From the IMG/VR virus record IMGVR_UViG_2778261276_000008, positions 1 through 25,191 of that record: a stretch of 25,191 nucleotides of DNA; one strand, 5' to 3'. Under the pieces are notes generated by a model, which had not been told where the DNA came from, did not search any database, and saw nothing but the letters and a program-made list of their open reading frames with translations. This document shows positions 1,135 through 24,904 of this stretch, in pieces (the stretch's first letter is position 1; every line of letters begins with the position of its first letter). Source of the DNA: a virus (Duplodnaviria > Heunggongvirae > Uroviricota > Caudoviricetes). The translations under genes were made by a program, and so were the position numbers.

Positions 1135-2109
1135 TCACTTTTTGGTAATGCTGTCATCATTTGCTGCTGATTTTTTATCTACAAGTGTACCTAGAATGTT
1201 AAATAAATTTGGAGGTGGCTGCATTTTATCTGCGAATGCAGAATTAGCAGACATGTTCCAATCTTTAAACACATCAATAGCATCTTGTTTTGTCGCAGTT
1301 GAACCATAAATTTGTAAGAAGACTTCACCAAACATTAGAGCATGTTGTCTGTCTTTTCTTATGATTGCTTCATGTGTGTATTTTTTTGAATTGTTTAAAC
1401 AAAAATAAGAAAGCCAAGAAAGTAATGCAACCCCAAGCAAGCCTCTAGTGAAATAATAAAAAAGTTCAATGGGGGTAGTATCTTTTATATCTATTTTATA
1501 AAAAAATGTTAAAAAGGCGGCACTTATAGATAATAATGAAAATAGTATTCCGGCTATCGCCCAATTGTAAGACATTGCAGTGAAATCTTTATCATCCTGC
1601 TGTAGTTTTTCTTTGACGCCCTGCACATATTTAGGAACTTTTTCGTCAATTTTATTTTGTTGGATTTTGCTTGAAAGTTCTTGGTTTTGAAGCTTTAGCT
1701 CATTGTTTTTGGCGTGTTGGAAATCTAGCTGTGATGCTAGTTTTTTTTTACTTTCCATTTCATTTAATAATTTTTCATTCAACTTTTCCATTTGCTCTGA
1801 ATGAGAGTTATGGATTTTTTGCAATTCACGCACTTTATGCTCTAATTTAGTGATTTTTGAAATGTAATCATCTATCTCACTATTTTTTAAGGATGTGCGT
1901 TCGGGGTTAATGTGCTCACAATTATATTTTTTAGAAAAATATTTACTGTAAACATCAAAAAGCACATCGAATTCATTAAACTTTAAAGAATTCAATAGTT
2001 TTTTCAAATCATTATAGACACTATCGGATAAATATGATTTTAATTCCTCTAGTTTAATGATTCTAGAGATATATTCTTCACTATTATCTTTCCAATTGGA
2101 ACCGGCCAT
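1135..2109 (-). CDS. Hypothetical protein, 324 aa: coiled-coil N-terminal region plus two predicted transmembrane helices (cargo gene)
   Basis: Long ORF, visibly AT-rich compared with flanks. SD-like GAGGA about 7 nt upstream of ATG. Lys/Glu/Leu-rich heptad-like region around aa 80-170. Hydrophobic helices at about aa 183-204 and 224-238. Lies 12 bp downstream of the cI-like gene on the same strand. Confidence 0.6.
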   Translation of the reverse strand: MAGSNWKDNSEEYISRIIKLEELKSYLSDSVYNDLKKLLNSLKFNEFDVLFDVYSKYFSKKYNCEHINPERTSLKNSEIDDYISKITKLEHKVRELQKIHNSHSEQMEKLNEKLLNEMESKKKLASQLDFQHAKNNELKLQNQELSSKIQQNKIDEKVPKYVQGVKEKLQQDDKDFTAMSYNWAIAGILFSLLSISAAFLTFFYKIDIKDTTPIELFYYFTRGLLGVALLSWLSYFCLNNSKKYTHEAIIRKDRQHALMFGEVFLQIYGSTATKQDAIDVFKDWNMSANSAFADKMQPPPNLFNILGTLVDKKSAANDDSITKK

Positions 2110-2121
2110 TCCAATATCCTC

Positions 2122-3066
2122 TTATAATTCTTCTATAAGCAAAAATTTGCATTTAGCAATAACATCAATGTCTGAAATATTACATTCAAACGATAAATAA
2201 TTGTCTGAGATTTTTAATCTTCCTACAGGTATCCTAGTTAGGGTTCGAATACTCACTTTTCCTTCTATTTCAACAATCCATTTACCATCTGTAATTTCAT
2301 CAAATGACTGATCACATAGGTATGTTTTTTTTGGGGTACTGACAATCAGTGGTAATTGGATTGAGTCTGGTATTAATGCTTTATCAAGCATATAGAAATC
2401 TGACTCAAATAGATTCCCATCAGTGATTTTTTTGCGTGTAATAGCAATTACATCATTTCTTGCATCGTCAAACTTTGGGCCTTTACCAGTAGTTAGCCAC
2501 GTTAGTGAAGTACCCGTTTCTAGAGCGCACTTAATTATCCAGTCTGAAGGAAAGACATCACGCATATATCTTGTGGCTAATGTGCTTTTTGAAATACCTA
2601 AGTGATCAGCTAAGGCTTGGCGCGTCTTATAACCGTAAGCCTTAACAATTCGTTCTATTGCTTCCTTGCCACCTCGAGAAAAATCAACGGAGTTTTCATT
2701 GTCGAACTTTTGTTGTTTATAGTGAACATCATGATAAGAACCATCTTCGGAGTGTGTTTCAACATGTTGTTCTGGTGAAGGGGATGGCATTTGCTCGTCA
2801 TCATCTGAACCAAATGCTAGCCATTTAATTGATGCTCCTGTTTCCATTGAGCAGATAACTACCCAATCTGCAGGAAATGTATCGCGGGCATATCTGTTAG
2901 CCATCGTGCTTTGGGAAATACCTAGATGGTTACAGAATGCCTGGCGTGACTTGAAGCCATAAGCCATGAGTATCCGCTCAATTACTTTCTGACCACCGCG
3001 ATTCTGTATGACAACGGCTTTCATATCGTCATTCATATGGCGAAATGTGAATTTTTGAGTTGACAT
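2122..3066 (-). CDS. cI: CI-like immunity repressor with tandemly duplicated 186-CI-type HTH domain, 314 aa
   Basis: Two internal repeats (about aa 14-86 and 117-195) share a GG..IERI..AYG(F/Y)K.RQA...HLGIS.ST.A.RY.RD.FP.DW...C..ETG.S..WL..G pattern, resembling the N-terminal DNA-binding domain of coliphage 186 CI as I recall it. Divergent from the apl-like gene, as in 186. Confidence 0.75.
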   Translation of the reverse strand: MSTQKFTFRHMNDDMKAVVIQNRGGQKVIERILMAYGFKSRQAFCNHLGISQSTMANRYARDTFPADWVVICSMETGASIKWLAFGSDDDEQMPSPSPEQHVETHSEDGSYHDVHYKQQKFDNENSVDFSRGGKEAIERIVKAYGYKTRQALADHLGISKSTLATRYMRDVFPSDWIIKCALETGTSLTWLTTGKGPKFDDARNDVIAITRKKITDGNLFESDFYMLDKALIPDSIQLPLIVSTPKKTYLCDQSFDEITDGKWIVEIEGKVSIRTLTRIPVGRLKISDNYLSFECNISDIDVIAKCKFLLIEEL

Positions 3067-4959: not shown

Positions 4960-5813
4960 GCACCATCCTGAAATGGGCGGGTAATAAAACCGCCATTATG
5001 TCCGAACTGAAAAAACATCTTCCTGCTGGCCCGCGGCTGGTTGAACCTTTCGCGGGTTCTTGTGCTGTGATGATGGCGACGGATTACCCCAGCTATCTGG
5101 TTGCGGATATTAATCCTGATTTAATCAACCTCTATAAAAAGGTTTCTGCTGATTGTGAGGCGTTTATATCTCGCGCCAGAGTTTTATTTGAGAACGCAAA
5201 CAGGGAGGTGGCTTATTACAACATAAGGCAGGAGTTTAATTACTCAACTGAAATTACTGATTTCATGAAAGCGGTATATTTCCTGTATCTCAATCGTCAC
5301 GGTTACCGTGGGTTATGTCGCTATAACAAGAGCGGGCATTTCAACATTCCCTACGGTAATTATAAAAATCCGTATTTCCCTGAAAAAGAAATTCGCGCAT
5401 TTGCAGAGAAAGCCCAGCGAGCAACGTTTATCTGCGCCAGCTTTGATGAAACGCTGGCGATGCTGCAGGTGGGGGATGTGGTGTATTGCGATCCGCCTTA
5501 TGACGGTACGTTTTCCGGTTATCACACTGACGGCTTCACTGAAGATGACCAGTATCACCTGGCATCCGTTCTTGAACATCGGTCATCAGAAGGACATCCC
5601 GTCATTGTTTCTAACAGTGACACATCCCTGATCCGTTCGCTGTATCGCAATTTTACTCACCACTACATCAAGGCAAAACGCAGCATCGGTGTGGCAGCTG
5701 GTGATAGTAAATCTGCAACAGAAATCATTGCTGTTTCCGGGGCGCGCTGCTGGGTGGGATTTGATCCTTCGCGTGGCGTAGATAGTTCTGCTGTGTACGA
5801 GGTGCGTGTATGA
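4956..5813 (+). CDS. dam: DNA adenine methyltransferase (Dam family, N6-adenine, GATC-type)
   Basis: Motif I FAGSCAV and motif IV DPPY. N-terminus [11 protein letters not shown] resembles Dam. GGAGGT SD 6 nt upstream of ATG at 4956. ATGA overlap with upstream and downstream genes. Confidence 0.85.
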
Positions 5814-8224
5814 GTCATGACGATATGAGCAACTCTAGCGGCTTTAACGAGGCCGCTGCATCATTTTCATGGAACGGCCCGAAAAAGGCCATTAACCCTT
5901 ATCTGGACCCGGCGGAATTTGCGCCGGAGTCTGCACTTTCAAACCTGATCACTCTGTATGCTGCCGATAACGAGCAGGAACAACTGCGCCGCGAGGCACT
6001 GAGTGAGCAGGTCTGGGAGCGTTATTTCTTTAATGAATCCCGTGATCCTGTCCAGCGCGAAATGGAGCAGGATAAGCTCATTAGCCGCGCAAAGCTTGCG
6101 CATGAGCAGCAGCTTTTTAACCCGGACATGGTCATTCTGGCAGATGTCAGCGCCCAGCCTACCCACATCAGCAAGCCGCTGATGCAACGTATCGAATACT
6201 TCAGCAGCCTGGGCAGGCCAAAGGCTTATTCCCGCTATTTGCGTGAGACGATTAAGCCATGTCTGGAGCGACTGGATTGTGTACGCGACAGTCAGCTATC
6301 CGCTTCTTTCCGTTTTATGGCAAGCCATCAAGGGCTTGAGGGCCTGCTGATCCTGCCTGAAATGAGTCAGGATCAGGTAAAACGCCTGTCCACCCTGGTA
6401 GCTGCGCATATGAGCATGTGCCTTGATGCCGCTTGTGGCGATTTATATGCCACCGATGACGTTAAGCCAGAAGAAATCCGCAAGACATGGGAAAAGGTGG
6501 CAGCGGAAACCCTGCGACTGGATGTTATCCCGCCTGCGTTTGAGCAACTCCGCCGGAAAAGAAACCGCCGCAAACCCGTGCCCTATGAACTCATACCGGG
6601 TTCGCTGGCACGTATGCTTTGCGCCGACTGGTGGTATCGAAAATTGTGGAAGATGCGTTGCGAATGGCGGGAAGAGCAGTTGCGTGCTGTCTGCCTGGTC
6701 AGCAAAAAAGCATCTCCCTATGTCAGCTATGAAGCCGTGACGCATAAACGTGAGCAGCGCCGTAAGTCGCTGGAGTTTTTCCGTTCTCATGAACTGGTGA
6801 ACGAAGACGGCGACACGCTGGATATGGAAGATGTGGTAAACGCCAGCAGCAGCAACCCGGCACATCGCCGCAATGAGATGATGGCCTGTGTTAAAGGTCT
6901 GGAGCTTATCGCAGAAATGCGTGGTGACTGCGCCGTTTTCTACACTATCACCTGTCCGTCACGTTTCCATTCCACGCTCAACAACGGCAGACCCAACCCG
7001 ACCTGGACAAATGCGACGGTAAGACAAAGCAGCGATTATCTGGTCGGCATGTTTGCTGCATTTCGTAAGGCTATGCACAAAGCCGGGTTGCGCTGGTATG
7101 GCGTGCGGGTGGCTGAGCCGCACCATGACGGTACTGTGCACTGGCATCTCATGTGTTTCATGCGCAAAAAAGACCGCCGCGCCATTACTGCATTGTTGCG
7201 TAAGTTTGCCATCCGTGAAGACCGCGAGGAACTGGGTAATAACACAGGTCCACGCTTTAAATCTGAGCTGATAAACCCACGCAAAGGAACACCGACAAGC
7301 TACATCGCGAAATACATCAGTAAGAACATTGACGGGCGTGGTCTGGCTGGCGAGATCAGCAAGGAAACGGGTAAATCCCTGCGTGATAATGCTGAATACG
7401 TTAATGCCTGGGCGTCTCTGCATCGTGTTCAGCAATTCCGCTTCTTTGGCATTCCGGGGCGTCAGGCTTACCGTGAACTGCGATTGCTGGCTGGTCAGGC
7501 GGCAAGGCAACAGGGGGACAAAAAAGCAGGTGCGCCGGTACTGGATAACCCGCGCCTTGATGCCATCCTGGCTGCTGCTGATGCTGGTTGTTTTGCCACC
7601 TACATCATGAAGCAGGGCGGCGTACTGGTTCCCCGCAAATATCACCTTATCAGAACAGCTTATGAAATTAACGAAGAGCCGACTGCTTATGGCGATCACG
7701 GTATTCGTATTTATGGCATCTGGTCACCCATTGTACAGGGCAAGATTTGCACTCATGCAGTGAAGTGGAAAATGGTTCGTAAGGCCGTTGACGTTCAGGA
7801 GGCGGCAGCCGACCAGGGCGCTTGCGCCCCTTGGACTCGTGGCAATAACTGTCCCCTTGCTGAAAATTTGAACCAACAAGGGAAAGACAAATCAGCTGAT
7901 GGGGACTCCAGAACGGATATTACCCGTATGAATGACAAGGAGTTGCACGATTACCTGCACAGTATGAGCAAAAAAGAGCGCCGGGAACTGGCTGCAAGGT
8001 TACGCCAGGTGAAACCGAAACGGCGTAAAGACTACAAACAGCGAATTACAGACCATCAGCGACAGCAGCTCGTCTATGAACTGAAGTCCAGGGGATTTGA
8101 TGGCAGCGAGAAAGAAGTCGATTTGCTCCTTCGCGGCGGCAGTATTCCGTCAGGAGCAGGCCTGCGTATCTTCTATCGGAACCAGCGTCTGAAGGAAGAT
8201 GATAAGTGGCGGAACCTGTATTAA
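5810..8224 (+). CDS. A: Replication initiation endonuclease (P2 gpA family, rolling-circle HUH), 804 aa
   Basis: HUH-like HWHLMCF motif and YIAKYISK catalytic tyrosine motif. Size and position match P2/186 gene A. Confidence 0.9.
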
Positions 8225-8318
8225 TTACGCGGGTTAACAATTCGTGCTCTTAATAATACCAGGCATATCAGGCCGATGAACGTAAAAAAACGTTTTACAT
8301 CAGTAAGATTATTATATA

Positions 8319-8334
8319 CTGTAAATATAAACAG
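8319..8334. promoter_or_regulatory. LexA box (CTGTAAATATAAACAG) in the promoter of the tum-like operon
   Basis: Exact CTGT-N8-ACAG with an AT-rich spacer, 43 bp upstream of the ATG at 8377 and overlapping -10-like hexamers. Position is equivalent to the 186 SOS promoter p95. Confidence 0.6.
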
Positions 8335-8376
8335 TGGTTATGTGTACAGTATTGTTTTGGTGTCATAGGAGGAAAG

Positions 8377-8565
8377 ATGCAGGACTATTTTTTGGAGTCT
8401 TTGAAGCTCCAGCGCATTGATTTTTTTCTTAAGCTTGTAGCGGCTAGTGAGTGTAGTGATGAAGAGAAGGGGCTGGCTCTGCAGTGGGTTTCTGAATTGA
8501 CTGATGAACTCATGGCAAAAATCAGAAGCCACGAATACAACCGCTCAATGGATGTCATCAGCTGA
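8377..8565 (+). CDS. Small protein, 62 aa, first gene of the LexA-controlled operon
   Basis: AGGAGG SD 5 nt upstream. Immediately followed by the DinI-like gene. Confidence 0.5.
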   Translation: MQDYFLESLKLQRIDFFLKLVAASECSDEEKGLALQWVSELTDELMAKIRSHEYNRSMDVIS

Positions 8566-8575
8566 GGTGACTTTT

Positions 8576-8809
8576 ATGCGCATTGAAATAATGATCGATA
8601 AAGAGCAGAAGATTAGCCAGTCTACCCTGGACGCACTTGAATCCGAGCTTTACCGCAATCTGCGCCCCCTGTATCCCAAAACGGTAATTCGCATTCGCAA
8701 AGGTAGCTCTAACGGTGTGGAACTAACCGGACTGCAACTGGATGAAGAAAGAAAACAAGTGATGAAAATTATGCAGAAGGTGTGGGAGGACGACAGCTGG
8801 CTGCATTAA
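8576..8809 (+). CDS. DinI-family protein (186 Tum-like SOS antirepressor module), 77 aa
   Basis: Sequence MRIEIMIDKEQKISQ...LYRNL...IRIRKGSSNGVELTG...VMKIMQKVWEDDSWL resembles E. coli DinI (MRIEVTIAKT... ending in the W-rich acidic tail). GAGGTG SD 5 nt upstream of the ATG. Confidence 0.7.
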   Translation: MRIEIMIDKEQKISQSTLDALESELYRNLRPLYPKTVIRIRKGSSNGVELTGLQLDEERKQVMKIMQKVWEDDSWLH

Positions 8810-9001
8810 GAAATGTTGCCCCCAGGAGGATTCATTCTGATGGGGGCTAGTTTGGGCAATGAGTGAAATAAGGCGTAAGGTGGGCGGTTATTTTGATAAG
8901 TGATCGTCCGCTTTGTGTCAGAAGCAGAAGTGGGAGTGTCTGAGACTCTCTAAAAGTTGATGATTCACTTACAAAACCATTTTCCTGATGGATGCTTACA
9001 C

Positions 9002-9337
9002 TTACGAATGATCATTCTGTTTAGTCTTCATGAGAAAATCCCGAATCTTTGCCAAGTTTGAATTTTCGGGGATTGAATCCATGTACGGATCACGCTCAAA
9101 CACTAATTGCTCAGATTCAACGAAAGCCTGCCACTCTAATGGGTCTAGCTCAAATCCCATTGCTGTCATATCACTTTCATCTTCCCCCTCGATCCAGTGG
9201 ACTAAATAAAACAATTCATCATCAGGAGAATCATCCTCACCATCAACAATATCAACATCGGTTACAGTGATACGTAGGGTGGGATCGATTTTTGAGACAT
9301 AAATTCCTAACTGTGGTATAGGGGGAATATTGTTCAT
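9002..9337 (-). CDS. Strongly acidic hypothetical protein, 111 aa (cargo)
   Basis: ORF with an AAGGAG SD 5 nt upstream. By my count 26 Asp/Glu against 7 Lys/Arg. No recognisable catalytic motif. Confidence 0.55.
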   Translation of the reverse strand: MNNIPPIPQLGIYVSKIDPTLRITVTDVDIVDGEDDSPDDELFYLVHWIEGEDESDMTAMGFELDPLEWQAFVESEQLVFERDPYMDSIPENSNLAKIRDFLMKTKQNDHS

Positions 9338-9649
9338 GGAAACTCCTTTTATTGGTGTTTGCTATTTGAATAAAAATACGCCAAACAGAGTATTAACTGT
9401 GAATATGGAAAGAATCGTTGTAAGTACCCCGCTTAGGTGTCCCATTCTATTTTAGAGGTTCTCGTGCATATGGATTATGTTATCTGAAAGTTAACTTCCG
9501 CTTCCCGTTCACAGCGAACATTCATCTTTGTAAACCCGTATGATCCGTTTTTCAAGTGGCCATTCAGATACGGATTTTCACTTCCTTGACAGTGCATGAC
9601 TATGCTGCATGAAATCGCATGATCGATTGAGGATCGTCTTTGCTCAGAT

Positions 9650-9671
9650 CCGCCAGAACTGGCGGGCTTTT
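9650..9671 (+). terminator. Intrinsic-terminator-like hairpin (CCGCCAG-AA-CTGGCGG followed by GCTTTTG)
   Basis: Perfect 7-bp inverted repeat followed by a T-tract on the plus strand. Confidence 0.4.
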
Positions 9672-9716
9672 GCTCATGTCATGCATGTGCATGAAAACCA
9701 CTGCATAAAGCGGGCA

Positions 9717-9736
9717 GGCGTGGCGGGGATACGAGC
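9717..9736. other. Candidate cos cohesive-end sequence (GGCGTGGCGGGGATACGAGC)
   Basis: First 13 nt match the P2/186 cohesive end as I recall it (P2: GGCGAGGCGGGGAAAGCAC). The 3' part diverges. Lies in a GC-rich island inside an AT-rich region, upstream of the portal gene. Confidence 0.35.
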
Positions 9737-9811
9737 GCGCGGAAGCAGTTTCACATGTAATTCGATTGGTGTAATCTAAACTACAACTTAAGAAAAGAGA
9801 ATGAGTAAACC

Positions 9812-11551
9812 ATGGAATTGCACGCATATACTAGAACCATATCAGAATTACTTTCGGTTAATAGAAAATATGTTGTCCCAAGATTTCAGCGAGAATATTC
9901 TTGGGTAAAAGAACAAATTAATGAGCTTTGGTATGATGTAATATCTAATATCAAATTAGAGAATGATTTCACATATTCTAATAATGAGTATTTTATTGGT
10001 TCTTTAGTTTTAGTTGGAGATGAAACAGGAAGGGAAATGCAAATAGTTGATGGTCAGCAACGACTTACAACTCTTACGATTTTTCTTTCCGTTTTATGTG
10101 AGGCGTTCAAGCTAAACAATCAATCAGATTTAGCATCTGCTCTATTTGAAAATTATATTGAAGGTCGTGATGATGATGGTAAGAAATTTTTTAAGCTAAT
10201 AAATGAAACACCTAAGCCTTTTTTTCAGAAAAATATCCAACACCTTAATAAGGCAGATGACGCACCCCAGACACAAGAGGAGCGAAATCTCTTGTCTGCA
10301 TATAAGGAAATTACATCGTTAGCCTCAAAGGAAAAATTGGGAAAGTATTTTTCAGTCGAAATTAATACTGAAGATAATTATTCCAGTGTATTAAAAGCAA
10401 TTAGGGATCAGATTTTAAGATTTCTTAAGATAATTTTTATTACTGTTAATGAAGAGGACGAGGCGTATACAATATTTGAAACATTAAATGCGAGAGGGAT
10501 GAATTTAAGTTTTGTAGATCTAATTAAAAATAAATTATTTAAAGCGTTAAACAACCCTCATCCAAATGATGATGCAAAAGATAATTGGAAGGCTATACGT
10601 ACTACTTTAATGCAAAGAAATGGTGTAGGGACTTTTGAAAATTTCATGAGGCACTGGTGGGTGTCGAAGTATGCTTACGTAAGCAATGAAAATCTTTATA
10701 AGTCCTTTATTGGAAAATGGCGTAAGGGGGAAATTAATCCGGTAACCTTTATTGAAGAATTGAAACAGGATGCCGAATTGTATGTACGCTTGTCATCTCC
10801 TTTGGAGAGTGATTATCCACAAATGGAAGATAAACAGATATTCCATTCGTTGAATGCAATTAGGCTATTTGGTATAACGCAGTGTAGACCTTTTTTATTA
10901 GCTTTACTAAAGGCAAAACAGCAAAGGAGATTGCGTCAATGTGATCTTTTAAAAGCAGTTAAATATATTGAAAATTTTCATTTTGTATTTAATGCGATAT
11001 GTTCATTAAGGCCGTCAGGGATAGAAGGTGCATATTCTAAGGCCGCAAGAGCAATAAATTCACCAAATGCTACAAAAGTAACTAATGGTACAACAATTGA
11101 ACAGTTATGCTTGTTGTTGAGTAACCGCAAGCCAGAAATTTCTGTATTCACTGAAAATTTCAGAGATATATTATTTACTGATGACAACTCCAAGCAAAAA
11201 AGATTGGTCCAATATATTATAAATAAATTTGAAATGGCCCGTCATAATGGAGATGAGTATCGTCCTAATTCTATTTCTTTAGAGCATATAATGCCTCAAA
11301 GTGCTGGCAACGATAAGGAAATAGGAATGATTGGAAATATAATCCCTCTGTCAAAAGAACTTAATGAGCAAGCTGGTAATAAATCATTGGCACAAAAGCT
11401 CTCTATCTATTCACAATCGGAGTTTAGATTGACGGAAGAGTTTATTAGTGAACTTGAAACCATTTACCATAATGAATGGAATCTCCAGTCTATTATTCAG
11501 AAGACAGATAGAATGGCTGGTGAGGCTTATATGAATATTTGGAGTCATTAA
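9812..11551 (+). CDS. DUF262/DUF1524 (GmrSD-like) putative type IV restriction / anti-phage nuclease, 579 aa
   Basis: N-terminal DUF262 hallmarks (RFQREYSW at about aa 23-31, DGQQRLTTL at aa 80-88). C-terminal His-Me-finger-like SLEHIMPQS (His about 492) followed by Asn residues. AT-rich single gene. Confidence 0.75.
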   Translation: MELHAYTRTISELLSVNRKYVVPRFQREYSWVKEQINELWYDVISNIKLENDFTYSNNEYFIGSLVLVGDETGREMQIVDGQQRLTTLTIFLSVLCEAFKLNNQSDLASALFENYIEGRDDDGKKFFKLINETPKPFFQKNIQHLNKADDAPQTQEERNLLSAYKEITSLASKEKLGKYFSVEINTEDNYSSVLKAIRDQILRFLKIIFITVNEEDEAYTIFETLNARGMNLSFVDLIKNKLFKALNNPHPNDDAKDNWKAIRTTLMQRNGVGTFENFMRHWWVSKYAYVSNENLYKSFIGKWRKGEINPVTFIEELKQDAELYVRLSSPLESDYPQMEDKQIFHSLNAIRLFGITQCRPFLLALLKAKQQRRLRQCDLLKAVKYIENFHFVFNAICSLRPSGIEGAYSKAARAINSPNATKVTNGTTIEQLCLLLSNRKPEISVFTENFRDILFTDDNSKQKRLVQYIINKFEMARHNGDEYRPNSISLEHIMPQSAGNDKEIGMIGNIIPLSKELNEQAGNKSLAQKLSIYSQSEFRLTEEFISELETIYHNEWNLQSIIQKTDRMAGEAYMNIWSH

Positions 11552-11556
11552 TAGTT

Positions 11557-11589
11557 GAATGCCCTATTATTATATCAGTAATAGGGCAT
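11557..11589. terminator. Bidirectional-terminator-like hairpin between the convergent GmrSD-like and portal genes
   Basis: 12-bp perfect stem (AATGCCCTATTA / TAATAGGGCATT) with a 9-nt loop. Confidence 0.45.
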
Positions 11590-11595
11590 TTGAAA

Positions 11596-12627
11596 TTACT
11601 CCAACACGTAATTGCCAAATGAAATTATTGGCTCCCCAATCCATTTGTTTAATTCGCATATGAGTTTTTGTAAGGGAATTAACTCGTTTCTTACAAATAC
11701 CTTACTAGCTTTCTCTACATCCCCAAATCCCCCGACATTATTTGGCATTATCCCCATCATTTGCGGCGGCACTCGGTGTGCTGCCATCATGTCATCGCGG
11801 CTGACATTTTTGATATTCAGAAACTCATCCTTTGCCGCAACTTCTGACAAAGGGATGATCTGAAGGCCGTCCTTTTTGCCGTTAGGCGAGTACATAAACA
11901 GGTTGCGGAAGTTGCCTGGACCTTTGGCGCTTTTCATCGCGTTGCGGAGGTTGTTCACATCCTCCTGATTCTGCGCGGCGTCGGTCATGTACATGATGAA
12001 GCCTGCATGGCTGCCGTTGATGTAATACTTACGGCGGAATAGCGTGGCGGATTCGTTGAGCAGGGCGGATGGAATGGCAGAAAGATAGCCGGGCAGGCCG
12101 TAGATCTCCTGGTTGATGTCCGGTTCCATCAGATGAAAAATGCTGCCTTTCGTGAACTGATACGGTTGGGTTGTCATACCGTATTGCACAAACCAGTAGG
12201 TATCCAGGTCTAACCCGCGTCGGGTGTATTTTGCCAGCGCAGGCTCAAGGGCGATAACTTCACCGAATCGGTTCGTGCGTTTCTCCAGGTAGGCGTTACC
12301 AAATACCAGATAGTCCTGCACAAAACGCGAAAAAGCCTGCTGGCTGAGCAGCGGGTGAGGGATGTAGGTGCTGGTCAGAATGTTGCACTTCACTGCAATC
12401 GGTGAGCTGTGATGCACGGCGGCGCGGAAGGTTCGCGCCAGTCCGTCGAAACTCACAGGCGGCTCATACCAACGATCCATCTGTACGCATTCCACATAGT
12501 CCAGCAGTTCGCGGCGGTCCAGAACAGGAACGGGATCACCGAAGCTGAATGCTTCGGCTGAAGTCTGGCTTTGATGCTGGATCTGTTTCGTCGACGCAGC
12601 GCGGTTCTTCTTACTCTTTCCCATCAA
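11596..12627 (-). CDS. Q: Portal protein (P2 gpQ family), 343 aa
   Basis: Size and position match P2 gpQ. Start overlaps the terminase stop (ATGA coupling). Confidence 0.85.
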   Translation of the reverse strand: MMGKSKKNRAASTKQIQHQSQTSAEAFSFGDPVPVLDRRELLDYVECVQMDRWYEPPVSFDGLARTFRAAVHHSSPIAVKCNILTSTYIPHPLLSQQAFSRFVQDYLVFGNAYLEKRTNRFGEVIALEPALAKYTRRGLDLDTYWFVQYGMTTQPYQFTKGSIFHLMEPDINQEIYGLPGYLSAIPSALLNESATLFRRKYYINGSHAGFIMYMTDAAQNQEDVNNLRNAMKSAKGPGNFRNLFMYSPNGKKDGLQIIPLSEVAAKDEFLNIKNVSRDDMMAAHRVPPQMMGIMPNNVGGFGDVEKASKVFVRNELIPLQKLICELNKWIGEPIISFGNYVLE

Positions 12628-14390
12628 AAAATCTCCACAATATTGCTGGTATTGGCGGACTCGCCCTGCAGTGGTTCGTTAAACAGTGCGTGCATTGTTG
12701 CCCAGGCCAGATCGGCGTGGCTGGCTTCTTCGCTGCGGCTGGCTTCATAGGTTGGGCGGTTGCCGCTGGCGGTGGTGGCGCGACGGATTGCCATAAATGA
12801 CTGCGCTATGTCGGTGTGTCCGGCGTCAAACTCCAGACGACGGTGACTGATAATGTCGTAGGCTTTGAGTACCAGGGCGTTTTTAACGTTGGGGTTGTAG
12901 ACAAACTCCCGGACGGCAGGAAAGAACGCTTTCACGTTCTCGTAAACCCCGTGACCGACACCTGTTGAGTCGATGCCGATATAGGTCACGTTGTACTGTT
13001 CGGTCAGTTTTTTGATGGCGTCAGCCTGGGCGCGGAAGTCCATCCCGCGCCACTGGTGACGCTCAAGAATGCGAAACTTACCGCCTGGCACGGCTGGCGG
13101 TGCCACCACCACGCATCCGGCGCTGTCGCCGTTCTGCGTACCTTTTGCCGGGTCATAACCGATCCACACCTCGCGCCAGCCAAACGGGCGCAGGGCCAGT
13201 GCATGAAAGTCGGTCCAGACTTCCCAACTGTCCACCATGCACGCCTGCAGTTCGCTGAGCGGGAACACGGACGCGAGATCGTCCACGAACTCGCACATCA
13301 GCAGGTTCTGGTATTCGTCCGGGCTGTACTCCATGCGTAGCTGGTCGAGGTCGAACAGGTTACAGCCGCCGCGCACCGCATCTTCCACGGTGACTATCTG
13401 GCGGTATTGCCCGTCTGCGCACAGCAGGCCGGGGGCCAGATTGCTGTGGGACAGGTCGATGTCCACCTTGTCGGCTTTGTTGCGTCCACGGTTGAACAGC
13501 GCACCGGACCAGAACGGATAAGCACTGTGGGTCAGGCTGGATGGCGTGGAAAAATAGGTTTGTCGCCATTTTTTGTGAATAGCCATACCGGAAGCCACTT
13601 TACGCAGCTCCTGAAATTTCGGTATCCAGAAATATTCATCCAGATACAGGTTGCCGTGATAACTCTGGGCAGTGCGGGCATTGGTGCCGAGGAAGTAAAG
13701 CGTGGCACCGTTAGGAAGCACCATCGGATCACCTTTCAGCTCCACCTCCACTTCTTTGGCGAAGTCGATGATGTACTGCTTAAAGACGTGGGCCTGTGCC
13801 TTGCTGGCGGAAAGGAATATCTGGTTACGTCCGGTCAGCAGGGCGTCAATCAGGGCTTCACGGGCAAAATAGAAGGTTGCGCCGATCTGGCGTGACTTCA
13901 GCAGGTTGCGGATGCGGTTGGTTTTTCCGGCTTCCCACCAGTGGCGCTGGTAGTTGAACATGGAGGAATGGAAGATTTCTTCCAGCTTCTCAATCTGTTC
14001 ATCGGTGAAAACATTCTTTTCCGGCTGACGGCGTGGGCCTTTGTTGCGGTTGGCGACGTTAGGGTTTAAGTCGGCTTCGTTGCCGCCATTGTTAAACTTG
14101 CCGATCCGCGCGTGGCGCTCCGACTGGCGCGCCAGCAGGTCAATCTCTTTGAAATCTTTCCCTTCTTTGTGCTCCTTCATAATGAGCTGGCAGTAGCGTG
14201 CGGCGGTGGTGAGCTGCATCTGATCCAGCGGCCCATAGTCACCCCACTTGTCGCGTTTTTTCCAGCTGTGAACAGTTGCAACTTTCTCGCCCAGCATTTC
14301 AGCAATGCGGGCGACGCGGTATCCCTGAAAGTACAGCAGCATGGCCTGCCGACGGGGATCGAGATCTGCGGGTGTCAGTGTGGTGTTCAT
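12624..14390 (-). CDS. P: Terminase large subunit / ATPase (P2 gpP family), 588 aa
   Basis: Size and position match P2 gpP. Divergent from the capsid operon, as in P2. Confidence 0.85.
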   Translation of the reverse strand: MNTTLTPADLDPRRQAMLLYFQGYRVARIAEMLGEKVATVHSWKKRDKWGDYGPLDQMQLTTAARYCQLIMKEHKEGKDFKEIDLLARQSERHARIGKFNNGGNEADLNPNVANRNKGPRRQPEKNVFTDEQIEKLEEIFHSSMFNYQRHWWEAGKTNRIRNLLKSRQIGATFYFAREALIDALLTGRNQIFLSASKAQAHVFKQYIIDFAKEVEVELKGDPMVLPNGATLYFLGTNARTAQSYHGNLYLDEYFWIPKFQELRKVASGMAIHKKWRQTYFSTPSSLTHSAYPFWSGALFNRGRNKADKVDIDLSHSNLAPGLLCADGQYRQIVTVEDAVRGGCNLFDLDQLRMEYSPDEYQNLLMCEFVDDLASVFPLSELQACMVDSWEVWTDFHALALRPFGWREVWIGYDPAKGTQNGDSAGCVVVAPPAVPGGKFRILERHQWRGMDFRAQADAIKKLTEQYNVTYIGIDSTGVGHGVYENVKAFFPAVREFVYNPNVKNALVLKAYDIISHRRLEFDAGHTDIAQSFMAIRRATTASGNRPTYEASRSEEASHADLAWATMHALFNEPLQGESANTSNIVEIF

Positions 14391-20384: not shown

Positions 20385-21200
20385 TCATATTTTTAATTTT
20401 TTATGGATATGCTCCATCCCTAAATTAGATATCTCTTTTTTTAGCTGGGTTTCACTTGCAGTTATCCAGTTTTTTCCACAGTTTGGTAGAAGCATCTCGC
20501 TACTTGACGGATTGATAAGTTTTACTTTTTCATTCTTTATAATTTTGTTTTTCAAATAACTTTTACTTATTAAGGCTGATTTTTCAGTTATAACGAGATA
20601 AAAAAATATGCTTCCAAAAAATATACCTTTTAAAATAATACCGCTGCGTAACAGAACAGGGTCATTTTTGGTTATTCTCATTTTAAAGGGAGAGCAAAGG
20701 TTGTCTTCACTTGTAGGTATATTAAGTTCGCTTTTTTGCTCGTCAGTAAGTTTAAGAGGCATGAGCAGTCCAGCGAAGAGCATGACATCTTTTTCTGAAG
20801 GCAAAGGTTCTCCGCGGAGAATATAATCTTTATATGCGCCAAAAATATGTGTGGATGGATCATTGACCGCGCTTGCCGAGTTGTAAGAAATTTTCATTAA
20901 CCAGCGTAGCAATAAATGATAATCATAAGTTATAGTCGTTTGTGTCTTTAGATAAAGTTGGGTTAAGAAACCGTTTCTGGCTAAAAACTGACTTCCATAA
21001 TCATCTAAAAAACTTAATGCTCCACCATTGCATGTTTTACAAACATCGGCAATTGTTGCCTCACCACCAATTATATCATTTGCTCTCTCGTTCCAGCCTA
21101 TAAAACGATCTCCAGATTCTTTTTGATATTTATATATAAATTTAGGGATAATATGTTCTCTTTCTATTATTCCATCTTGCTCGCAATATCTGCAGTGCAT
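20385..21200 (-). CDS. HNH-motif nuclease-domain protein with uncharacterised C-terminal domain, 271 aa (cargo at the S-V locus)
   Basis: N-terminal 60 aa carry C3-x2-C6 ... E15-H16-IIPK ... N37/N41 ... C54-x2-C57-N58, the spacing of HNH/His-Me finger nucleases. Gene is AT-rich, on the opposite strand to the late genes, with GGAG SD 8 nt upstream. Confidence 0.6.
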   Translation of the reverse strand: MHCRYCEQDGIIEREHIIPKFIYKYQKESGDRFIGWNERANDIIGGEATIADVCKTCNGGALSFLDDYGSQFLARNGFLTQLYLKTQTTITYDYHLLLRWLMKISYNSASAVNDPSTHIFGAYKDYILRGEPLPSEKDVMLFAGLLMPLKLTDEQKSELNIPTSEDNLCSPFKMRITKNDPVLLRSGIILKGIFFGSIFFYLVITEKSALISKSYLKNKIIKNEKVKLINPSSSEMLLPNCGKNWITASETQLKKEISNLGMEHIHKKLKI

Positions 21201-21307: not shown

Positions 21308-21826
21308 ATGAACGCACAATTAACCGAAATCATGCGCCTTATCACCAACCTGATCCGCACTGGGGTAGTCACCGAAGTGGACAGGGAAAACTGGCTTTGC
21401 CGAGTGAAAACGGGCGACCTTGAAACTAACTGGATCAGTTGGCTGACGCTGCGTGCAGGAAATGCCCGGACATGGTGGCGACCATCGGAAGGTGAGCAGG
21501 TGGTGCTGCTGAGTCTGGGCGGTAATCTGGAAACCGCGTTTGCCCTGCCTGCGGTCTACTCAAACCAGTTTCCGCCACCTTCAGGCTCTGAGGACGGCAA
21601 CGTGACGGAATACCCGGACGGCGGCTGGTTTGAATACGAACCCGCCACCGGGCGCTGGTATGTCAGGGGCATCAAATCAATGGTCATTGAGGCCGCTGAC
21701 AATATCACCCTGAAAACCAGTGAGTTTGTGCTGGAGGCTGACCGCACGCGTATTAACAGCGAAGTGGTGATCAATGGTGGCGTTACCCACATTCCGTTTT
21801 GCCGCTTCTCCCAAACCAACGTTTAA
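21308..21826 (+). CDS. V: Baseplate spike/assembly protein V (P2 gpV family), 172 aa, probably C-terminally truncated
   Basis: N-terminus MNAQLTEIMRLITNLIRTGVVTEVD resembles P2 gpV. Shorter than P2 gpV (about 211 aa). No W, J, I, H, G, FI, FII, E, T, U genes follow. Confidence 0.75.
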   Translation: MNAQLTEIMRLITNLIRTGVVTEVDRENWLCRVKTGDLETNWISWLTLRAGNARTWWRPSEGEQVVLLSLGGNLETAFALPAVYSNQFPPPSGSEDGNVTEYPDGGWFEYEPATGRWYVRGIKSMVIEAADNITLKTSEFVLEADRTRINSEVVINGGVTHIPFCRFSQTNV

Positions 21827-22027
21827 GAAAATGCAGAGGTAACAGCTAACTGGCATCATCTCCGGTTTTTATTCAGGGGAATGCCAGTGAAAGTCAGTGG
21901 TTTTAAACAGCCGATAGATGATGCGGAATGGACCATTACGACTCTGACACATACCGTCAGCCCGGATAACGGTTTTATGACCAGTCTGGAGCTTGAAGTG
22001 AGGATTGATGATTTCGAAATGGAATGA
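21827..22027 (+). pseudogene. D: Remnant of the 3' end of tail gene D, in frame with V after its stop codon
   Basis: Open frame ending ...MPVKVSGFKQPIDDAEWTITTLTHTVSPDNGFMTSLELEVRIDDFEME, located immediately upstream of ogr where gene D ends in P2. Resemblance to the gpD C-terminus is from memory only. Confidence 0.45.
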
Positions 22028-22117
22028 TTCTTCGCAATGGAGAACTTTTAAGTTTGCAAAATGGAATAATGAGGTATCATTATTGTGAATTTAGCAAAAA
22101 TGGGGAGAACTCGAAAA

Positions 22118-22336
22118 ATGATGATTTGCCCACTGTGTGGAAGTGCCGCCCATACTCGCAGCAGTTTTCAGGTATCTTCATTGACCAAAGAGCGTTACAA
22201 CCAGTGCCAGAACATTAACTGCAGCCATACTTTTGTTACCCATGAAACTTTTGTTCGTTCGATTGCAACGCCAAAAGAGTCAAATCCGGTTCAGCCGCAT
22301 CCAATGAAATCAGGACAGGTGGCGCTCTCTCTTTGA
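22118..22336 (+). CDS. ogr: Ogr/Delta-family zinc-finger late transcription activator, 72 aa
   Basis: CPLCGSAAHTRSS...KERYNQCQNINCSHTF matches the P2 Ogr CxxC...CxxxxC zinc-finger pattern. Last phage gene before the att repeat. Confidence 0.85.
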   Translation: MMICPLCGSAAHTRSSFQVSSLTKERYNQCQNINCSHTFVTHETFVRSIATPKESNPVQPHPMKSGQVALSL

Positions 22337-22359
22337 CGCTGCCGCCATTTTGTCGCCAT
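22337..22359. repeat. Candidate attR core (CGCTGCCGCCATTTTGTCGCCAT)
   Basis: Direct repeat of 19..41 with two C/T mismatches. Starts immediately after the ogr stop codon. Confidence 0.5.
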
Positions 22360-22422
22360 CGTTAAAAAACAGTGCTTATAACATCATGATTTTAAAAGGC
22401 ATAAATTTCAGGCAACAAAAAA

Positions 22423-22459
22423 CCCATCAACCTTGAACCGAAATGGCGGGGTTGATGGG
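22423..22459 (-). terminator. Intrinsic-terminator-like hairpin downstream of ybjL
   Basis: 10-bp stem CCCATCAACC / GGTTGATGGG followed by TTTTTTG on the minus strand. Confidence 0.4.
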
Positions 22460-22571
22460 CTCCACAAAATGGGGACATCAAAGAAAAGCAGTGGCACTAA
22501 TTAAGACTGATGCCCTGCGGAAAAGTTCTGCGGTTGTGCAAAAAAATTTCATTTTCAGGGCAACTTCAGTT

Positions 22572-24526: not shown

Positions 24527-24904
24527 GTGAAACATAAACAACGTTGGGCGGGGGCAATCTGCTGTTTTGTCCTCTTCATTGTGGTGTGCCTTTTTCTGGC
24601 GACGCACATGAAAGGCGCTTTTCGGGCTGCCGGGCATCCTGAAATCGGCTTGCTATTTTTCATTCTTCCTGGAGCAGTCGCCAGCTTCTTTTCACAGCGT
24701 AGAGAAGTCCTGAAACCTCTGTTTGGCGCAATGCTGGCGGCACCCTGTTCGATGCTCATTATGCGGCTGTTTTTTTCACCGACGCGCTCATTCTGGCAAG
24801 AGCTGGCATGGTTACTAAGCGCGGTGTTCTGGTGTGCGCTGGGGGCACTGTGTTTCTTATTTATCAGTAGTTTGTTTAAACCACAGCACAGAAAAAATCA
24901 GTAA
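24527..24904 (+). CDS. ybjM: Inner membrane protein YbjM, 125 aa
   Basis: Four predicted TM helices. Synteny between ybjL and grxA. Confidence 0.8.
   Translation: MKHKQRWAGAICCFVLFIVVCLFLATHMKGAFRAAGHPEIGLLFFILPGAVASFFSQRREVLKPLFGAMLAAPCSMLIMRLFFSPTRSFWQELAWLLSAVFWCALGALCFLFISSLFKPQHRKNQ

What the first reader, a model, noticed from the sequence alone, without database searches (positions are those of the whole stretch)
9812..11551. GmrSD-like DUF262/DUF1524 nuclease gene between the cos-like site and the portal gene
A 579-aa protein with the DUF262 signature (DGQQR at aa 80-84) and a C-terminal His-Me-finger-like motif (EH at about 491-492) is the classic fused architecture of GmrSD-type modification-dependent (type IV) restriction and related defence nucleases. 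The gene is AT-rich cargo. If the cos call at 9717..9736 is right, it lies between cos and gene Q rather than at the usual tin/old side of cos, an unusual insertion point.
Basis: partly seen in the sequence, partly recalled or inferred. Interest (0 to 1): 0.65.

Follow-up and report, generated by a model that had tools for sequence, protein, structure and literature searches.

The report
GmrSD-like defence nuclease in P2 hotspot
An intact gene for a GmrSD-type (HEC-06-like) anti-phage DNA nuclease sits as swappable cargo between the packaging site (cos) and the portal gene of a tail-less P2/186-like E. coli prophage; this is the ordinary defence-gene slot of this phage lineage, not an unusual position.

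Summary
ORF 9812..11551 (+) encodes an intact 579-aa protein with GmrSD_N (E 1.7e-38) and GmrSD_C (E 2.4e-15) domains. DGQQR is at residues 80-84 and EH at 491-492, and GC is 33% against 51-57% in the flanks.

Its best defence model is HEC-06 (E 1e-92, full length). HEC-06 is a validated single-gene GmrSD-like defence whose DGQQR and EH mutants lose activity. The only structural relatives found are DndI, SspE and BrxU. The motifs are invariant down to 49% identity, and dN/dS is 0.07.

The cos call is supported by homology: 15 of 19 bases match 186 cos, inside a block conserved in 74 relatives. The "unusual insertion point" is not supported. 73 of 74 close relatives and 53 of 64 cross-species relatives carry cargo between cos and the portal gene, and all ten cargo proteins checked matched defence models. 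The published P2 hotspot (gpA to gpQ) covers this position and already lists a 96%-identical protein.

The most likely function is NTP-dependent, modification-dependent (type IV) restriction of phages with modified DNA. That is inferred from relatives. This protein's cluster (CLS_024) is catalogued but untested. It is an ordinary new member of a known kind.

The parts
9591..9741 (.). Conserved cos region shared with P2/186-like phages. It marks the left boundary of the cargo slot.
   Evidence: At least 90% column conservation across 70 unique sequences from 74 related loci, collapsing to noise at 9742. Megablast matches to 45 phage records cover only this block.
9717..9735 (+). Inferred 19-nt cohesive end (cos cut site), GGCGTGGCGGGGATACGAG.
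   Evidence: 15 of 19 identical to 186 cos and 14 of 19 to P2 cos, both annotated at position 1-19 of records that start at the cohesive end. Identified by homology only.
9742..11595 (+). Cargo cassette of 1854 bp at 33.0% GC: 70-bp leader, ORF, and 44-bp tail with a hairpin.
   Evidence: The boundaries come from the loss of conservation at 9742 and the portal stop codon at 11596. Composition. No flanking repeats were found.
9742..9811 (+). Cassette-specific leader that presumably holds the gene's own promoter and ribosome-binding site (not resolved).
   Evidence: No sigma-70 consensus hit in this stretch. A terminator-like hairpin at 9649-9666 upstream argues against read-through from the left. 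This is inference.
9812..11551 (+). GmrSD-like (HEC-06-clade) nuclease gene, 579 aa, intact.
   Evidence: dN/dS is 0.07 against the 94%-identical allele.
9839..10540 (+). N-terminal DUF262/GmrSD_N (ParB/Srx-like NTPase) domain, aa 10-243.
   Evidence: Pfam PF03235, E 1.7e-38, profile positions 1-199 of 199.
10049..10063 (+). DGQQR motif (aa 80-84), the predicted NTP-binding and hydrolysis site.
   Evidence: Invariant in 16 homologues of 49-100% identity. Q and R mutants of HEC-06, and R87A of DndI, abolish defence or ATPase activity.
11135..11518 (+). C-terminal DUF1524/GmrSD_C His-Me-finger nuclease domain, aa 442-569.
   Evidence: Pfam PF07510, E 2.4e-15. The model shows a beta-beta-alpha element: strands 489-492 and 510-513, helix 515-521.
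11282..11287 (+). E491-H492 of the LEHIMPQ motif, the predicted catalytic acid and general base. Partners N509 and N518 lie downstream.
   Evidence: Invariant. It fits the published family motifs (I/L/V)(E/D)H(I/L/V)xPQ and L(G/A)NLxLLxxxN. The equivalent E471A and H472A mutations kill HEC-06 defence.
11555..11593 (.). 17-bp hairpin between the converging nuclease and portal genes, a candidate bidirectional terminator. It occupies the place of tQ/tW in P2/186.
   Evidence: Minimum free energy -20 kcal/mol, z = -5.6, and 0 of 200 shuffles fold as well. A perfect 12-nt inverted repeat lies at 11558-11569 and 11579-11590.
11596..12627 (-). Portal gene (P2 Q / 186 W homologue). It marks the right boundary of the slot.
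   Evidence: ORF. Annotated as phage portal protein in matching E. coli records. 93-96% aa identity to 80 viral loci.
5810..8224 (+). Replication endonuclease gene A, the left landmark of the published gpA-gpQ hotspot.
   Evidence: ORF. The equivalent 804-aa gene is annotated as replication endonuclease / Phage_GPA in L001 and L087.

Best explanation
The gene encodes a stand-alone GmrSD-like anti-phage nuclease of the HEC-06 clade. It is carried as an exchangeable cassette in the cos-proximal defence hotspot of a P2/186-like prophage.

Proposed mechanism:
1. The lysogen expresses the protein from a cassette-borne promoter (inferred).
2. The N-terminal ParB/Srx-like DUF262 domain binds and hydrolyses NTP through QR, DGQQR and FxxxN, and couples this to DNA recognition.
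3. The C-terminal His-Me finger (E491, H492, N509, N518) nicks or cuts the DNA of a superinfecting phage.
4. Self DNA is most probably distinguished by modification. The enzyme would attack hypermodified DNA, such as the hmC or glucosyl-hmC of T-even phages, and spare the unmodified host and prophage DNA. That makes it a type IV restriction enzyme.

Shown here: gene integrity, domain architecture, motif conservation, fold family, purifying selection, solitary genomic context, and hotspot location. Inferred from relatives: nuclease and NTPase activities, the defence phenotype, and modification dependence.
For: Family and fold:
- Both GmrSD domains are present, with a full-length match to HEC-06 models at E 1.2e-92.
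- The protein is colinear with the experimentally tested HEC-06 over 410 aa, at 27% identity and E 9e-33.
- QR, DGQQR, FETLNARG, EH, GN and N518 are invariant in homologues down to 49% identity, and match the published family motifs.
- The AlphaFold model has pLDDT 84. Its only significant PDB matches are DndI, SspE and BrxU.

Constraint:
- dN/dS is 0.07.

Experiments on relatives:
- HEC-06 defends E. coli as a single gene, and its DGQQR and EH mutants lose defence.
- HEC-06 was reported to block T4. HEC-06_Bact restricts T-even phages but not the unmodified T4-GT7.
- 8 of 15 enterobacterial GmrSD groups restrict T-even phages.

Context:
- The gene is solitary here and in relatives. It occupies the same slot in E. 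coli, Hafnia and two uncultured/metagenome contigs whose protein is named Klebsiella pneumoniae in NCBI.
- A homologue sits in the nin region of lambdoid prophages, and another is a lone chromosomal gene in a cyanobacterium. None has dnd or ssp neighbours.
- The slot is defence-rich: all 10 cargo representatives checked hit defence models, and ShosA occupies it in L002.
- The hotspot is published.
Against: - Nothing has been tested for this protein or its cluster. The 96%-identical WP_094658700 falls in CLS_024, outside the CLS_001-020 groups that were synthesised and tested.
- It is only 27% identical to the tested HEC-06.
- Its closest solved relative is DndI (profile E 2.9e-21, full length). 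DndI senses phosphorothioate and attacks unmodified DNA, so modification dependence is not guaranteed within this clade.
- About half of the tested GmrSD groups showed no activity on T-even phages.
- No consensus promoter was found upstream.
- The prophage is truncated, so expression in this strain is unknown.
Confidence: 0.6

Rival explanations
1. It is a defence nuclease of the same family, but with a different target or trigger. It might recognise another DNA hypermodification (for example 5hmU derivatives, deazaguanines or Mom-type adenine). Alternatively it might act on unmodified invading DNA, with self-protection achieved by regulation rather than by a modification mark.
For: GmrSD groups share almost nothing beyond DGQQR, and differ in phage range and in which inhibitors block them. 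7 of 15 tested groups did not restrict T-even phages. HEC-06 and BrxU gave different defence profiles. This cluster is untested. Another modification-dependent nuclease, PD-T4-3, is plastic in the modifications it accepts.
Against: The two tested members nearest to this protein, HEC-06 and HEC-06_Bact, act on T-even phages, and HEC-06_Bact spares unmodified T4-GT7. An enzyme that cut unmodified DNA would endanger the host and the prophage itself.
Confidence: 0.25
2. It is a phosphorothioate-sensing nuclease of the DndI/SspE type. Host DNA would be protected by PT modification made by dnd or ssp genes elsewhere in the chromosome, and PT-free phage DNA would be nicked.
For: DndI is the closest solved structure by sequence profile (E 2.9e-21, full length) and by fold (E 4e-16), followed by SspE. 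DndI-type 'Orf5' models score up to 264 bits. P23 and Q26 of the DndI PT-sensing patch are conserved.
Against: - No dnd or ssp genes lie next to the gene in the window or in any of about 15 homologue contexts.
- The gene travels in phages between genera, so it cannot count on host PT modification.
- The PT-sensing Tyr (DndI Y25, SspE Y30) is an invariant Phe here and in the tested HEC-06.
- HEC-06 defends in the K-12 MG1655 deltaRM test strain as a single cloned gene with no dnd/ssp partner.
- DndI's own model scores only 136 bits, against 309 for HEC-06.
Confidence: 0.07
3. It is not a defence gene. It could be a selfish or homing-type HNH nuclease, or an accessory of phage DNA metabolism or packaging that sits beside cos for that reason.
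For: It lies beside cos and the terminase/portal operon. HNH nucleases assist the terminase in some phages (my own knowledge). PHROGs lists the family as 'unknown function' (phrog_21165, E 3.4e-109).
Against: The slot holds more than 50 unrelated cargo sets in relatives with near-identical packaging genes, and P2, 186 and L066 have nothing there, so the gene is dispensable for packaging. Only 1 of 160 surveyed slots holds a relative. Homologues occur far from any packaging genes. The architecture is that of validated defence proteins.
Confidence: 0.05
4. It is an inactive relic in a decaying prophage.
For: The prophage is truncated inside baseplate gene V, and host DNA follows.
Against: The reading frame is full length, and all catalytic residues are intact. 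The protein is 99.8% identical to the one in an apparently fuller prophage, L087. dN/dS is 0.07-0.08.
Confidence: 0.03

Closest known systems
HEC-06 (Hma-embedded candidate 06; WP_096851903, E. coli MOD1-EC1687; Payne et al., bioRxiv 10.1101/2024.01.29.577857)
   Same: A single-gene, 560-580-aa protein with DUF262, a helical linker and DUF1524. It shares PRFQR(D/E)Y, DGQQR, FETLNARG and EHIxP. It is the best PADLOC model family (E 1e-92, full length). It has Phe at the position of the DndI PT-sensing Tyr.
   Different: Only 27% identity over the 410 aa that could be compared. The tested HEC-06 is embedded in an Hma system, whereas this gene is cargo of a P2-like prophage. This protein's phage range is unknown.
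DndI (PDB 9JFL; Salmonella Cerro 87; PADLOC 'Orf5')
   Same: The closest solved structure: profile E 2.9e-21 over the full length, Foldseek E 4e-16. It has the same three-part architecture, the DGQQR ATPase motif and a C-terminal HNH nickase.
   Different: DndI is co-transcribed with dndFGH, lies next to dndBCDE, and uses PT sensing (Y25) to spare self DNA. This gene has no dnd neighbours, Phe25 in place of Tyr, about 19% identity, and a weaker score on DndI's own model (136 bits) than on HEC-06 models (309 bits).
SspE (PDB 6JIV, 7DRS)
   Same: DUF262 NTPase plus a C-terminal nuclease. Significant fold match at E 3e-14.
   Different: SspE is about 770 aa, is coupled to SspABCD, and is stimulated by PT. 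Only the first ~100 residues align by sequence.
BrxU (PDB 7P9K) and canonical GmrSD (EcoCT596, Eco94GmrSD)
   Same: The same Pfam domain pair, with DGQQR and (D/E)H...N...N motifs. These are single-chain, NTP-stimulated type IV enzymes acting on hmC or glucosyl-hmC DNA. GmrSD has been proposed to be prophage-borne.
   Different: The sequence relationship is very distant: profile E 0.34 to BrxU, and 51 bits on the mREase_IV model. There is no RLFDS motif. BrxU is embedded in BREX.
P2 cos-proximal defence hotspot (tin/old locus; Rousset et al. 2022, PMC9122126; Vassallo et al. 2022, PMC9519451)
   Same: Located between gpA and gpQ and next to cos. It is AT-rich cargo and hypervariable between relatives. 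DUF262/DUF1524 proteins, including the 96%-identical WP_094658700, are listed in the hotspot table.
   Different: In P2 itself, tin and old lie on the A side of cos and are transcribed away from it. Here, and in most relatives, the cargo lies on the portal side and is transcribed from cos towards the portal gene.

Membership tests
GmrSD family (Pfam PF03235 + PF07510; Machnicka et al. 2015) | N-terminal DUF262/GmrS (ParB/Srx-like) domain | tested here: met
   PF03235 E 1.7e-38, 133 bits against a cutoff of 33, full profile.
GmrSD family (Pfam PF03235 + PF07510; Machnicka et al. 2015) | C-terminal DUF1524/GmrD His-Me-finger domain fused in one chain | tested here: met
   PF07510 E 2.4e-15, 57 bits against a cutoff of 23, aa 442-569. 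A beta-beta-alpha element appears in the model.
GmrSD family (Pfam PF03235 + PF07510; Machnicka et al. 2015) | GmrS motifs QR, (I/V)(I/V)DGQQRLTT and FxxxN | tested here: met
   Q26-R27, I78-V79-D80-G81-Q82-Q83-R84-L85-T86-T87 and F222...N226 are all invariant in A1.
GmrSD family (Pfam PF03235 + PF07510; Machnicka et al. 2015) | GmrD motifs (I/L/V)(E/D)H(I/L/V)xPQ and L(G/A)NLxLLxxxN | tested here: met
   L490-E491-H492-I493-M494-P495-Q496, and I507-G508-N509...N518. E491, H492, Q496, G508, N509 and N518 are invariant.
GmrSD family (Pfam PF03235 + PF07510; Machnicka et al. 2015) | Modification-dependent, NTP-stimulated cleavage of hmC or glucosyl-hmC DNA (type IV restriction) | not testable with these tools
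   Needs plaque assays and biochemistry. Only relatives have been tested.
HEC-06 (PADLOC; Payne et al.) | Full-length match to the HEC-06 profile HMMs, better than to other GmrSD-like model sets | tested here: met
   PDLC04154, 04155 and 04157 score 309, 301 and 301 bits over aa 3-578. The best Orf5 model scores 264, SspE 66 and mREase_IV 51. The HEC-06 and Orf5 model sets overlap, because the tested HEC-06 itself scores 465 bits on Orf5 model PDLC02687.
HEC-06 (PADLOC; Payne et al.) | Direct homology to the experimentally tested protein, with the mutated residues conserved (Q79/R80, E471/H472) | tested here: met
   27% identity, E 9e-33, colinear over 410 aa. DGQQR aligns. EH(I)xP is present. 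The C-terminal 160 aa of the tested protein were not available for alignment.
HEC-06 (PADLOC; Payne et al.) | Single-gene system that needs no partner | tested here: inconclusive
   No conserved neighbour across contexts, which is consistent with a solitary system. Sufficiency needs an experiment.
DndI / SspE phosphorothioate-sensing nucleases | Genetic linkage to dndBCDE(-FGH) or sspABCD modification genes | tested here: not met
   None in the window or in any homologue locus examined. The rest of the host genome could not be examined.
DndI / SspE phosphorothioate-sensing nucleases | PT-sensing tyrosine (DndI Y25 / SspE Y30) in the N-domain hydrophobic patch | tested here: not met
   It aligns to F25, which is invariant in 16 homologues and also Phe in the tested HEC-06. 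P23 and Q26 of the patch are conserved.
BrxU | BREX embedding, an RLFDS nucleotide-binding motif, and close sequence similarity | tested here: not met
   No BREX genes nearby. No RLFDS string in the translation. Profile E 0.34. The fold is related (Foldseek E 8e-6).
P2-like cos-proximal defence hotspot cargo (Rousset et al. 2022) | Lies between replication gene A and portal gene Q, next to cos | tested here: met
   A at 5810-8224, cos at 9717, gene at 9812-11551, portal at 11596-12627.
P2-like cos-proximal defence hotspot cargo (Rousset et al. 2022) | Content varies among otherwise near-identical prophages and is rich in defence systems | tested here: met
   At least 50 arrangements in 74 loci with portal identity of 93% or more. 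All 10 representatives tested hit PADLOC models. The allele WP_094658700 is listed in the published table.

The most novel reading that the evidence does not exclude
This untested cluster (CLS_024), which sits between the solitary HEC-06 and the PT-sensing DndI, might recognise something other than glucosyl-hmC. The target could be a different phage DNA modification, or unmodified DNA with a new way of sparing self.

Separately, every cassette in this lineage starts exactly 25 nt past the cos cut, always reads from cos towards the portal gene, and displaces the native portal terminator. This sharp boundary might mean that cassettes are exchanged through the cos end itself (by terminase cutting or cohesive-end joining between co-infecting P2-like phages), rather than by ordinary flanking homology.
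Probability: 0.12. Interest if true: 0.5.

Novelty: new member of a known kind. Interest (0 to 1): 0.2.

Why it matters
This adds one more intact GmrSD-like gene under purifying selection to the catalogue of prophage-borne defences. It also places an untested enterobacterial cluster (CLS_024) in the HEC-06/DndI branch. The practical value is as a candidate for testing how far modification dependence extends within that branch, given that its nearest solved relative works by the opposite logic (PT sensing).

The survey also makes explicit a point the hotspot papers leave implicit. In the 186/Fels-2-like lineages, defence cargo sits mostly on the portal side of cos, starting about 6 nt beyond the cohesive end. 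None of this changes current understanding.

Tried and rejected
- Flanking repeats or att-like sites that would indicate site-specific insertion: only short chance repeats were found.
- A sigma-70 promoter in the 70-bp leader: none was found by the consensus scan, and counts equal those in shuffles. Expression signals remain unresolved.
- NCBIfam: only a sub-threshold DGQHR domain hit, which is uninformative.
- Near-identical DNA in the phage collection: only the cos block matches, and the gene itself is absent from 50,697 phage records at megablast sensitivity.
- Supplements of the 2026 P2/P4 survey: none are held. Its text does not discuss which side of cos carries cargo.
- Full sequence of the tested HEC-06: only the first 399 aa were recoverable, because the supplement cells are truncated. 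The C-terminal nuclease domain could not be compared directly.
- Tblastn of the HEC-06 fragment against plasmids: it showed that the family is also common on plasmids (693 records), but added nothing about this gene.
- PT-sensing (DndI-type) reading: considered seriously because DndI is the top structural hit, then down-weighted for the reasons given under rivals.
- Packaging-accessory HNH reading: rejected, because the slot is empty or filled with unrelated genes in phages with near-identical packaging genes.
Full report
**1. The observation**

The ORF is real and lies exactly where stated: 9812..11551 on the + strand, ATG start, 579 aa. A script confirmed DGQQR at residues 80-84 and E491-H492 within LEHIMPQ. 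Pfam finds GmrSD_N (PF03235, aa 10-243, E 1.7e-38, whole profile) and GmrSD_C (PF07510, aa 442-569, E 2.4e-15). The gene is 33.1% GC, against 51-57% for the neighbouring replication, portal and terminase genes. This is far beyond chance.

**2. The surroundings**

The window is a P2/186-like prophage. In order it carries:
- integrase and a CI-type repressor, then CII, a Dam-type methylase and replication gene A (5810-8224);
- a 62-aa ORF, a DinI-like gene, and a 111-aa DUF8087 ORF on the minus strand;
- the cos region and the nuclease gene;
- portal (11596-12627, -), terminase (12624-14390, -), and the scaffold, capsid, small terminase, head-completion, lysis and tail-completion genes (and by comparison).

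Prophage homology stops inside baseplate gene V at about 21790, and conserved host DNA (an Asp-Al_Ex permease and YbjM) follows. This copy is therefore a tail-less remnant.

**3. The cos site**

P2 and 186 records begin at the cohesive end. Their 19-nt ends are GGCGAGGCGGGGAAAGCAC and GGCGTGGCGGGGAAAGCAT. The window has GGCGTGGCGGGGATACGAG at 9717-9735, which matches 186 at 15 of 19 positions and P2 at 14 of 19. Its orientation relative to the portal gene is the same.

The site lies in a block (9591-9741) that is the only part of the 9300-11700 interval matching other phage records. That block is at least 90% conserved column by column in 74 related loci. Conservation collapses at 9742, 25 nt after the cut.

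**4. Is that position unusual? No.**

In P2 and 186 the portal stop codon is 187 and 196 bp from the cos cut, with only a terminator between them. In this window the distance is 1879 bp. I ran two surveys.

- *Close relatives.* I took 80 IMG/VR loci whose portal is 93-96% identical to this one. Of these, 74 have both landmarks. The cos-portal distance ranges from 196 to 3537 bp, and only one locus has the compact 196-bp form. There are at least 50 distinct gene arrangements, and almost all ORFs are transcribed from cos towards the portal gene, as here.
- *Across species.* I took 80 loci, one genome per species, with portal identity of 59-94%. Of these, 64 have the 12-nt cos core downstream of the portal gene. 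Ten have at most 300 bp in between, and 53 have more than 600 bp.

The cargo is defence-rich. Ten large cargo proteins from the slot were scanned against PADLOC, and all ten hit defence models. These include a retron RT-Toprim, LmuB, AbiU, IetS, PDC-S06, PDC-S49, an OLD/AriA-like ATPase, a helicase, NsnA/PD-T4-2_A and another HEC-06. L002 carries ShosA in the same slot. The isolated phage SopEPhi and the phage record vB_EcoM-813R9 also carry genes there.

The literature defines the P2 hotspot as the cos-proximal region between gpA and gpQ, so it spans both sides of cos. The supplementary hotspot table of Rousset et al. lists DUF262/DUF1524 proteins, including WP_094658700. That is the protein annotated at this position in E. 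coli strain 61, and it is 96% identical to the window protein.

The two sides of cos vary independently. L087 carries a protein 99.8% identical to the window's (a one-residue difference) in the same slot, with a HEPN_LA2681 gene on the A side. The window has DUF8087 there instead.

The slot is common, but this occupant is rare. Only 4 of 5426 complete E. coli genomes carry the gene, and 1 of 160 surveyed slots holds a relative of the clade.

**5. The cassette**

The cassette spans 9742-11595 (1854 bp, 33.0% GC). It consists of a 70-bp leader, the ORF, and a 44-bp tail. The tail holds a 17-bp hairpin (11555-11593; -20 kcal/mol, z = -5.6) between the converging genes, in the place where P2 and 186 have tQ/tW. 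No flanking repeats were found, and no consensus promoter was found in the leader. A terminator-like hairpin at 9649-9666 upstream of cos argues that the gene needs its own promoter (inference).

**6. The protein**

*Distribution.* A protein that differs at a single residue is in NCBI from E. coli, in a cluster of 78 sequences. In all, 4436 homologues have E of 1e-10 or better, including cyanobacterial proteins at 50-53% identity.

*Motifs.* In an alignment of 16 homologues (49-83% identity), the following residues are invariant: F25, Q26, R27, D80-R84, F222, N226, R228, G229, E491, H492, Q496, G508, N509 and N518. These are exactly the published family motifs: QR, (I/V)(I/V)DGQQRLTT, FxxxN, (I/L/V)(E/D)H(I/L/V)xPQ and L(G/A)NLxLLxxxN.

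*Selection.* dN/dS against the 94%-identical allele is 0.07.

*Structure.* The AlphaFold model (pLDDT 84.4) shows an N-terminal alpha/beta domain, a long helical linker, and a C-terminal beta-beta-alpha element at residues 489-521. Foldseek against the PDB returns only DndI (4e-16), SspE (3e-14 to 4e-10) and BrxU (8e-6). Nothing else scores below E 0.6.

**7. Placement within the family**

PADLOC ranks the model families as follows: HEC-06 (309 bits, full length), then 'Orf5' (264 at best), SspE (66), and mREase_IV (51). I showed that 'Orf5' is the DndI type. A 261-aa DndI fragment scores 437 bits on PDLC02701, a model of 596 positions, which is DndI's own length. The tested HEC-06 also scores 465 bits on an Orf5 model. 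HEC-06 and DndI-like proteins therefore form one broad clade. The window protein scores 136 bits on DndI's own model, so it lies nearer to HEC-06.

I recovered the first 399 aa of the tested HEC-06 (WP_096851903) from the preprint's supplement. The window protein is 27% identical to it, colinear over 410 aa (E 9e-33).

In the clustering of enterobacterial GmrSD proteins by the Nat Commun 2025 study, WP_094658700 is in CLS_024. Only CLS_001-020 were synthesised and tested, so this cluster is catalogued but untested.

**8. Mechanism**

What is established for relatives:
- HEC-06 defends E. coli as a single gene, and Q79A, R80A, E471A and H472A abolish defence.
- HEC-06 was reported to block T4. 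A Bacteroides homologue restricts T-even phages but not T4-GT7, which has unmodified cytosine.
- Eco94GmrSD is an ATP-stimulated enzyme specific for hmC and glucosyl-hmC DNA, and D507, H508 and N522 of its nuclease domain were the putative catalytic residues targeted by mutagenesis.
- 8 of 15 enterobacterial GmrSD groups restrict T-even phages.
- DndI is an ATPase and nickase whose ATPase is stimulated by PT in self DNA through Y25, which releases it from self DNA.

The window protein has all the catalytic residues. It has Phe at the Tyr25 position, as does HEC-06. It has no dnd or ssp neighbours in any context examined. Those contexts include lambdoid prophages and a cyanobacterial chromosome.

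I therefore favour a solitary type IV (modification-dependent) restriction enzyme. I give roughly 0.85 to 'GmrSD-like defence nuclease' and roughly 0.55 to 'modification-dependent against hmC-type phages'. The main rival is a different target or trigger within the same enzyme family.

**9. Verdict**

The cos call is supported. The claim of an unusual insertion point is refuted by comparative data and by the published definition of the hotspot. The finding is an ordinary new member of a known kind, sitting in a known hotspot, and the interest is low.

Noticed in passing
window 21308-22571 (junction at about 21790): The prophage is truncated. Baseplate gene V aligns to its 192-aa homologue only up to residue 161, and prophage DNA similarity ends at about 21790. 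Host genes follow: an Asp-Al_Ex/TrkA_C permease at 22572-24257 (-) and YbjM at 24527-24904. All tail genes downstream of V are missing. No complete E. coli genome in the collection contains this junction.
   Followed up: partly
window 20385-21200 (-): An AT-rich (about 34% GC) 271-aa ORF is inserted between tail-completion gene S and baseplate gene V. L087 has no gene there. It shows only a weak, sub-threshold HNH_5 hit and a weak PHROG hit, with no PADLOC hit. The same insert is 99% identical in several E. coli P2-like prophages. It may mark another small cargo slot.
   Followed up: partly
window 1135-2109 (-): An AT-rich (30-34% GC) 324-aa ORF lies between the integrase and the repressor. 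It has no Pfam or PADLOC hit, but a full-length match to phrog_2628 (unknown function, E 5e-71). It sits in the integrase-proximal region, which the 2026 P2/P4 survey lists as a minor defence hotspot.
   Followed up: partly
window 2122-3066 (-): The CI-type repressor ORF is 314 aa, against 189 aa in L087. It carries two copies of the CI helix-turn-helix domain: aa 23-86, 61% identical to the L087 CI N-terminus, and aa 127-190. The second copy begins a complete CI (aa 127-305, 49% identical to the L087 CI), which makes this a different immunity type. The ORF is either a tandem-HTH repressor or two genes with no stop codon between them.
   Followed up: partly
window 9742 (and the equivalent position in L007-L086): The cargo boundary is extremely sharp. 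All 74 relatives share cos plus 25 nt (GGCGTGGCGGGGATACGAGCGCGCG) and then diverge completely. Cargo thus starts about 6 nt beyond the 19-nt cohesive end, and nearly all of it is transcribed from cos towards the portal gene. The native portal terminator of P2/186 is replaced by cassette-borne hairpins.
   Followed up: yes
window 9002-9337 (-): A 111-aa DUF8087 ORF (phrog_17127, unknown function) lies on the A side of cos. It is 99.8% identical in many E. coli prophages, and it co-occurs with different portal-side cassettes: this nuclease, a 55%-identical second GmrSD-like allele in L179, and ShosA in L002. In L087 a HEPN_LA2681 gene takes its place.
   Followed up: partly
window 9649-9666 (+) and 9698-9713 (-): Two terminator-like hairpins lie inside the conserved block just left of the cos cut. 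They may terminate the DinI/SOS-operon transcript, or they may be part of the terminase recognition region.
   Followed up: no
P0046, P0059, P0068, P0102 (cyanobacteria); L181: Cyanobacterial proteins are 50-53% identical over the full length to this enterobacterial prophage protein. In Leptolyngbya the gene is solitary and lies near a transposase fragment. This is unusually high identity for such distant hosts and suggests wide horizontal spread of the clade.
   Followed up: partly
L088-L092 (Klebsiella lambdoid prophages), gene at 8001-9740: A 55%-identical homologue (P0032, seen in 262 collection blocks) is carried in the nin region of lambdoid prophages, between the replication genes and an Arc/Ant-like module. 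The same clade has therefore been captured by two unrelated temperate-phage types.
   Followed up: partly
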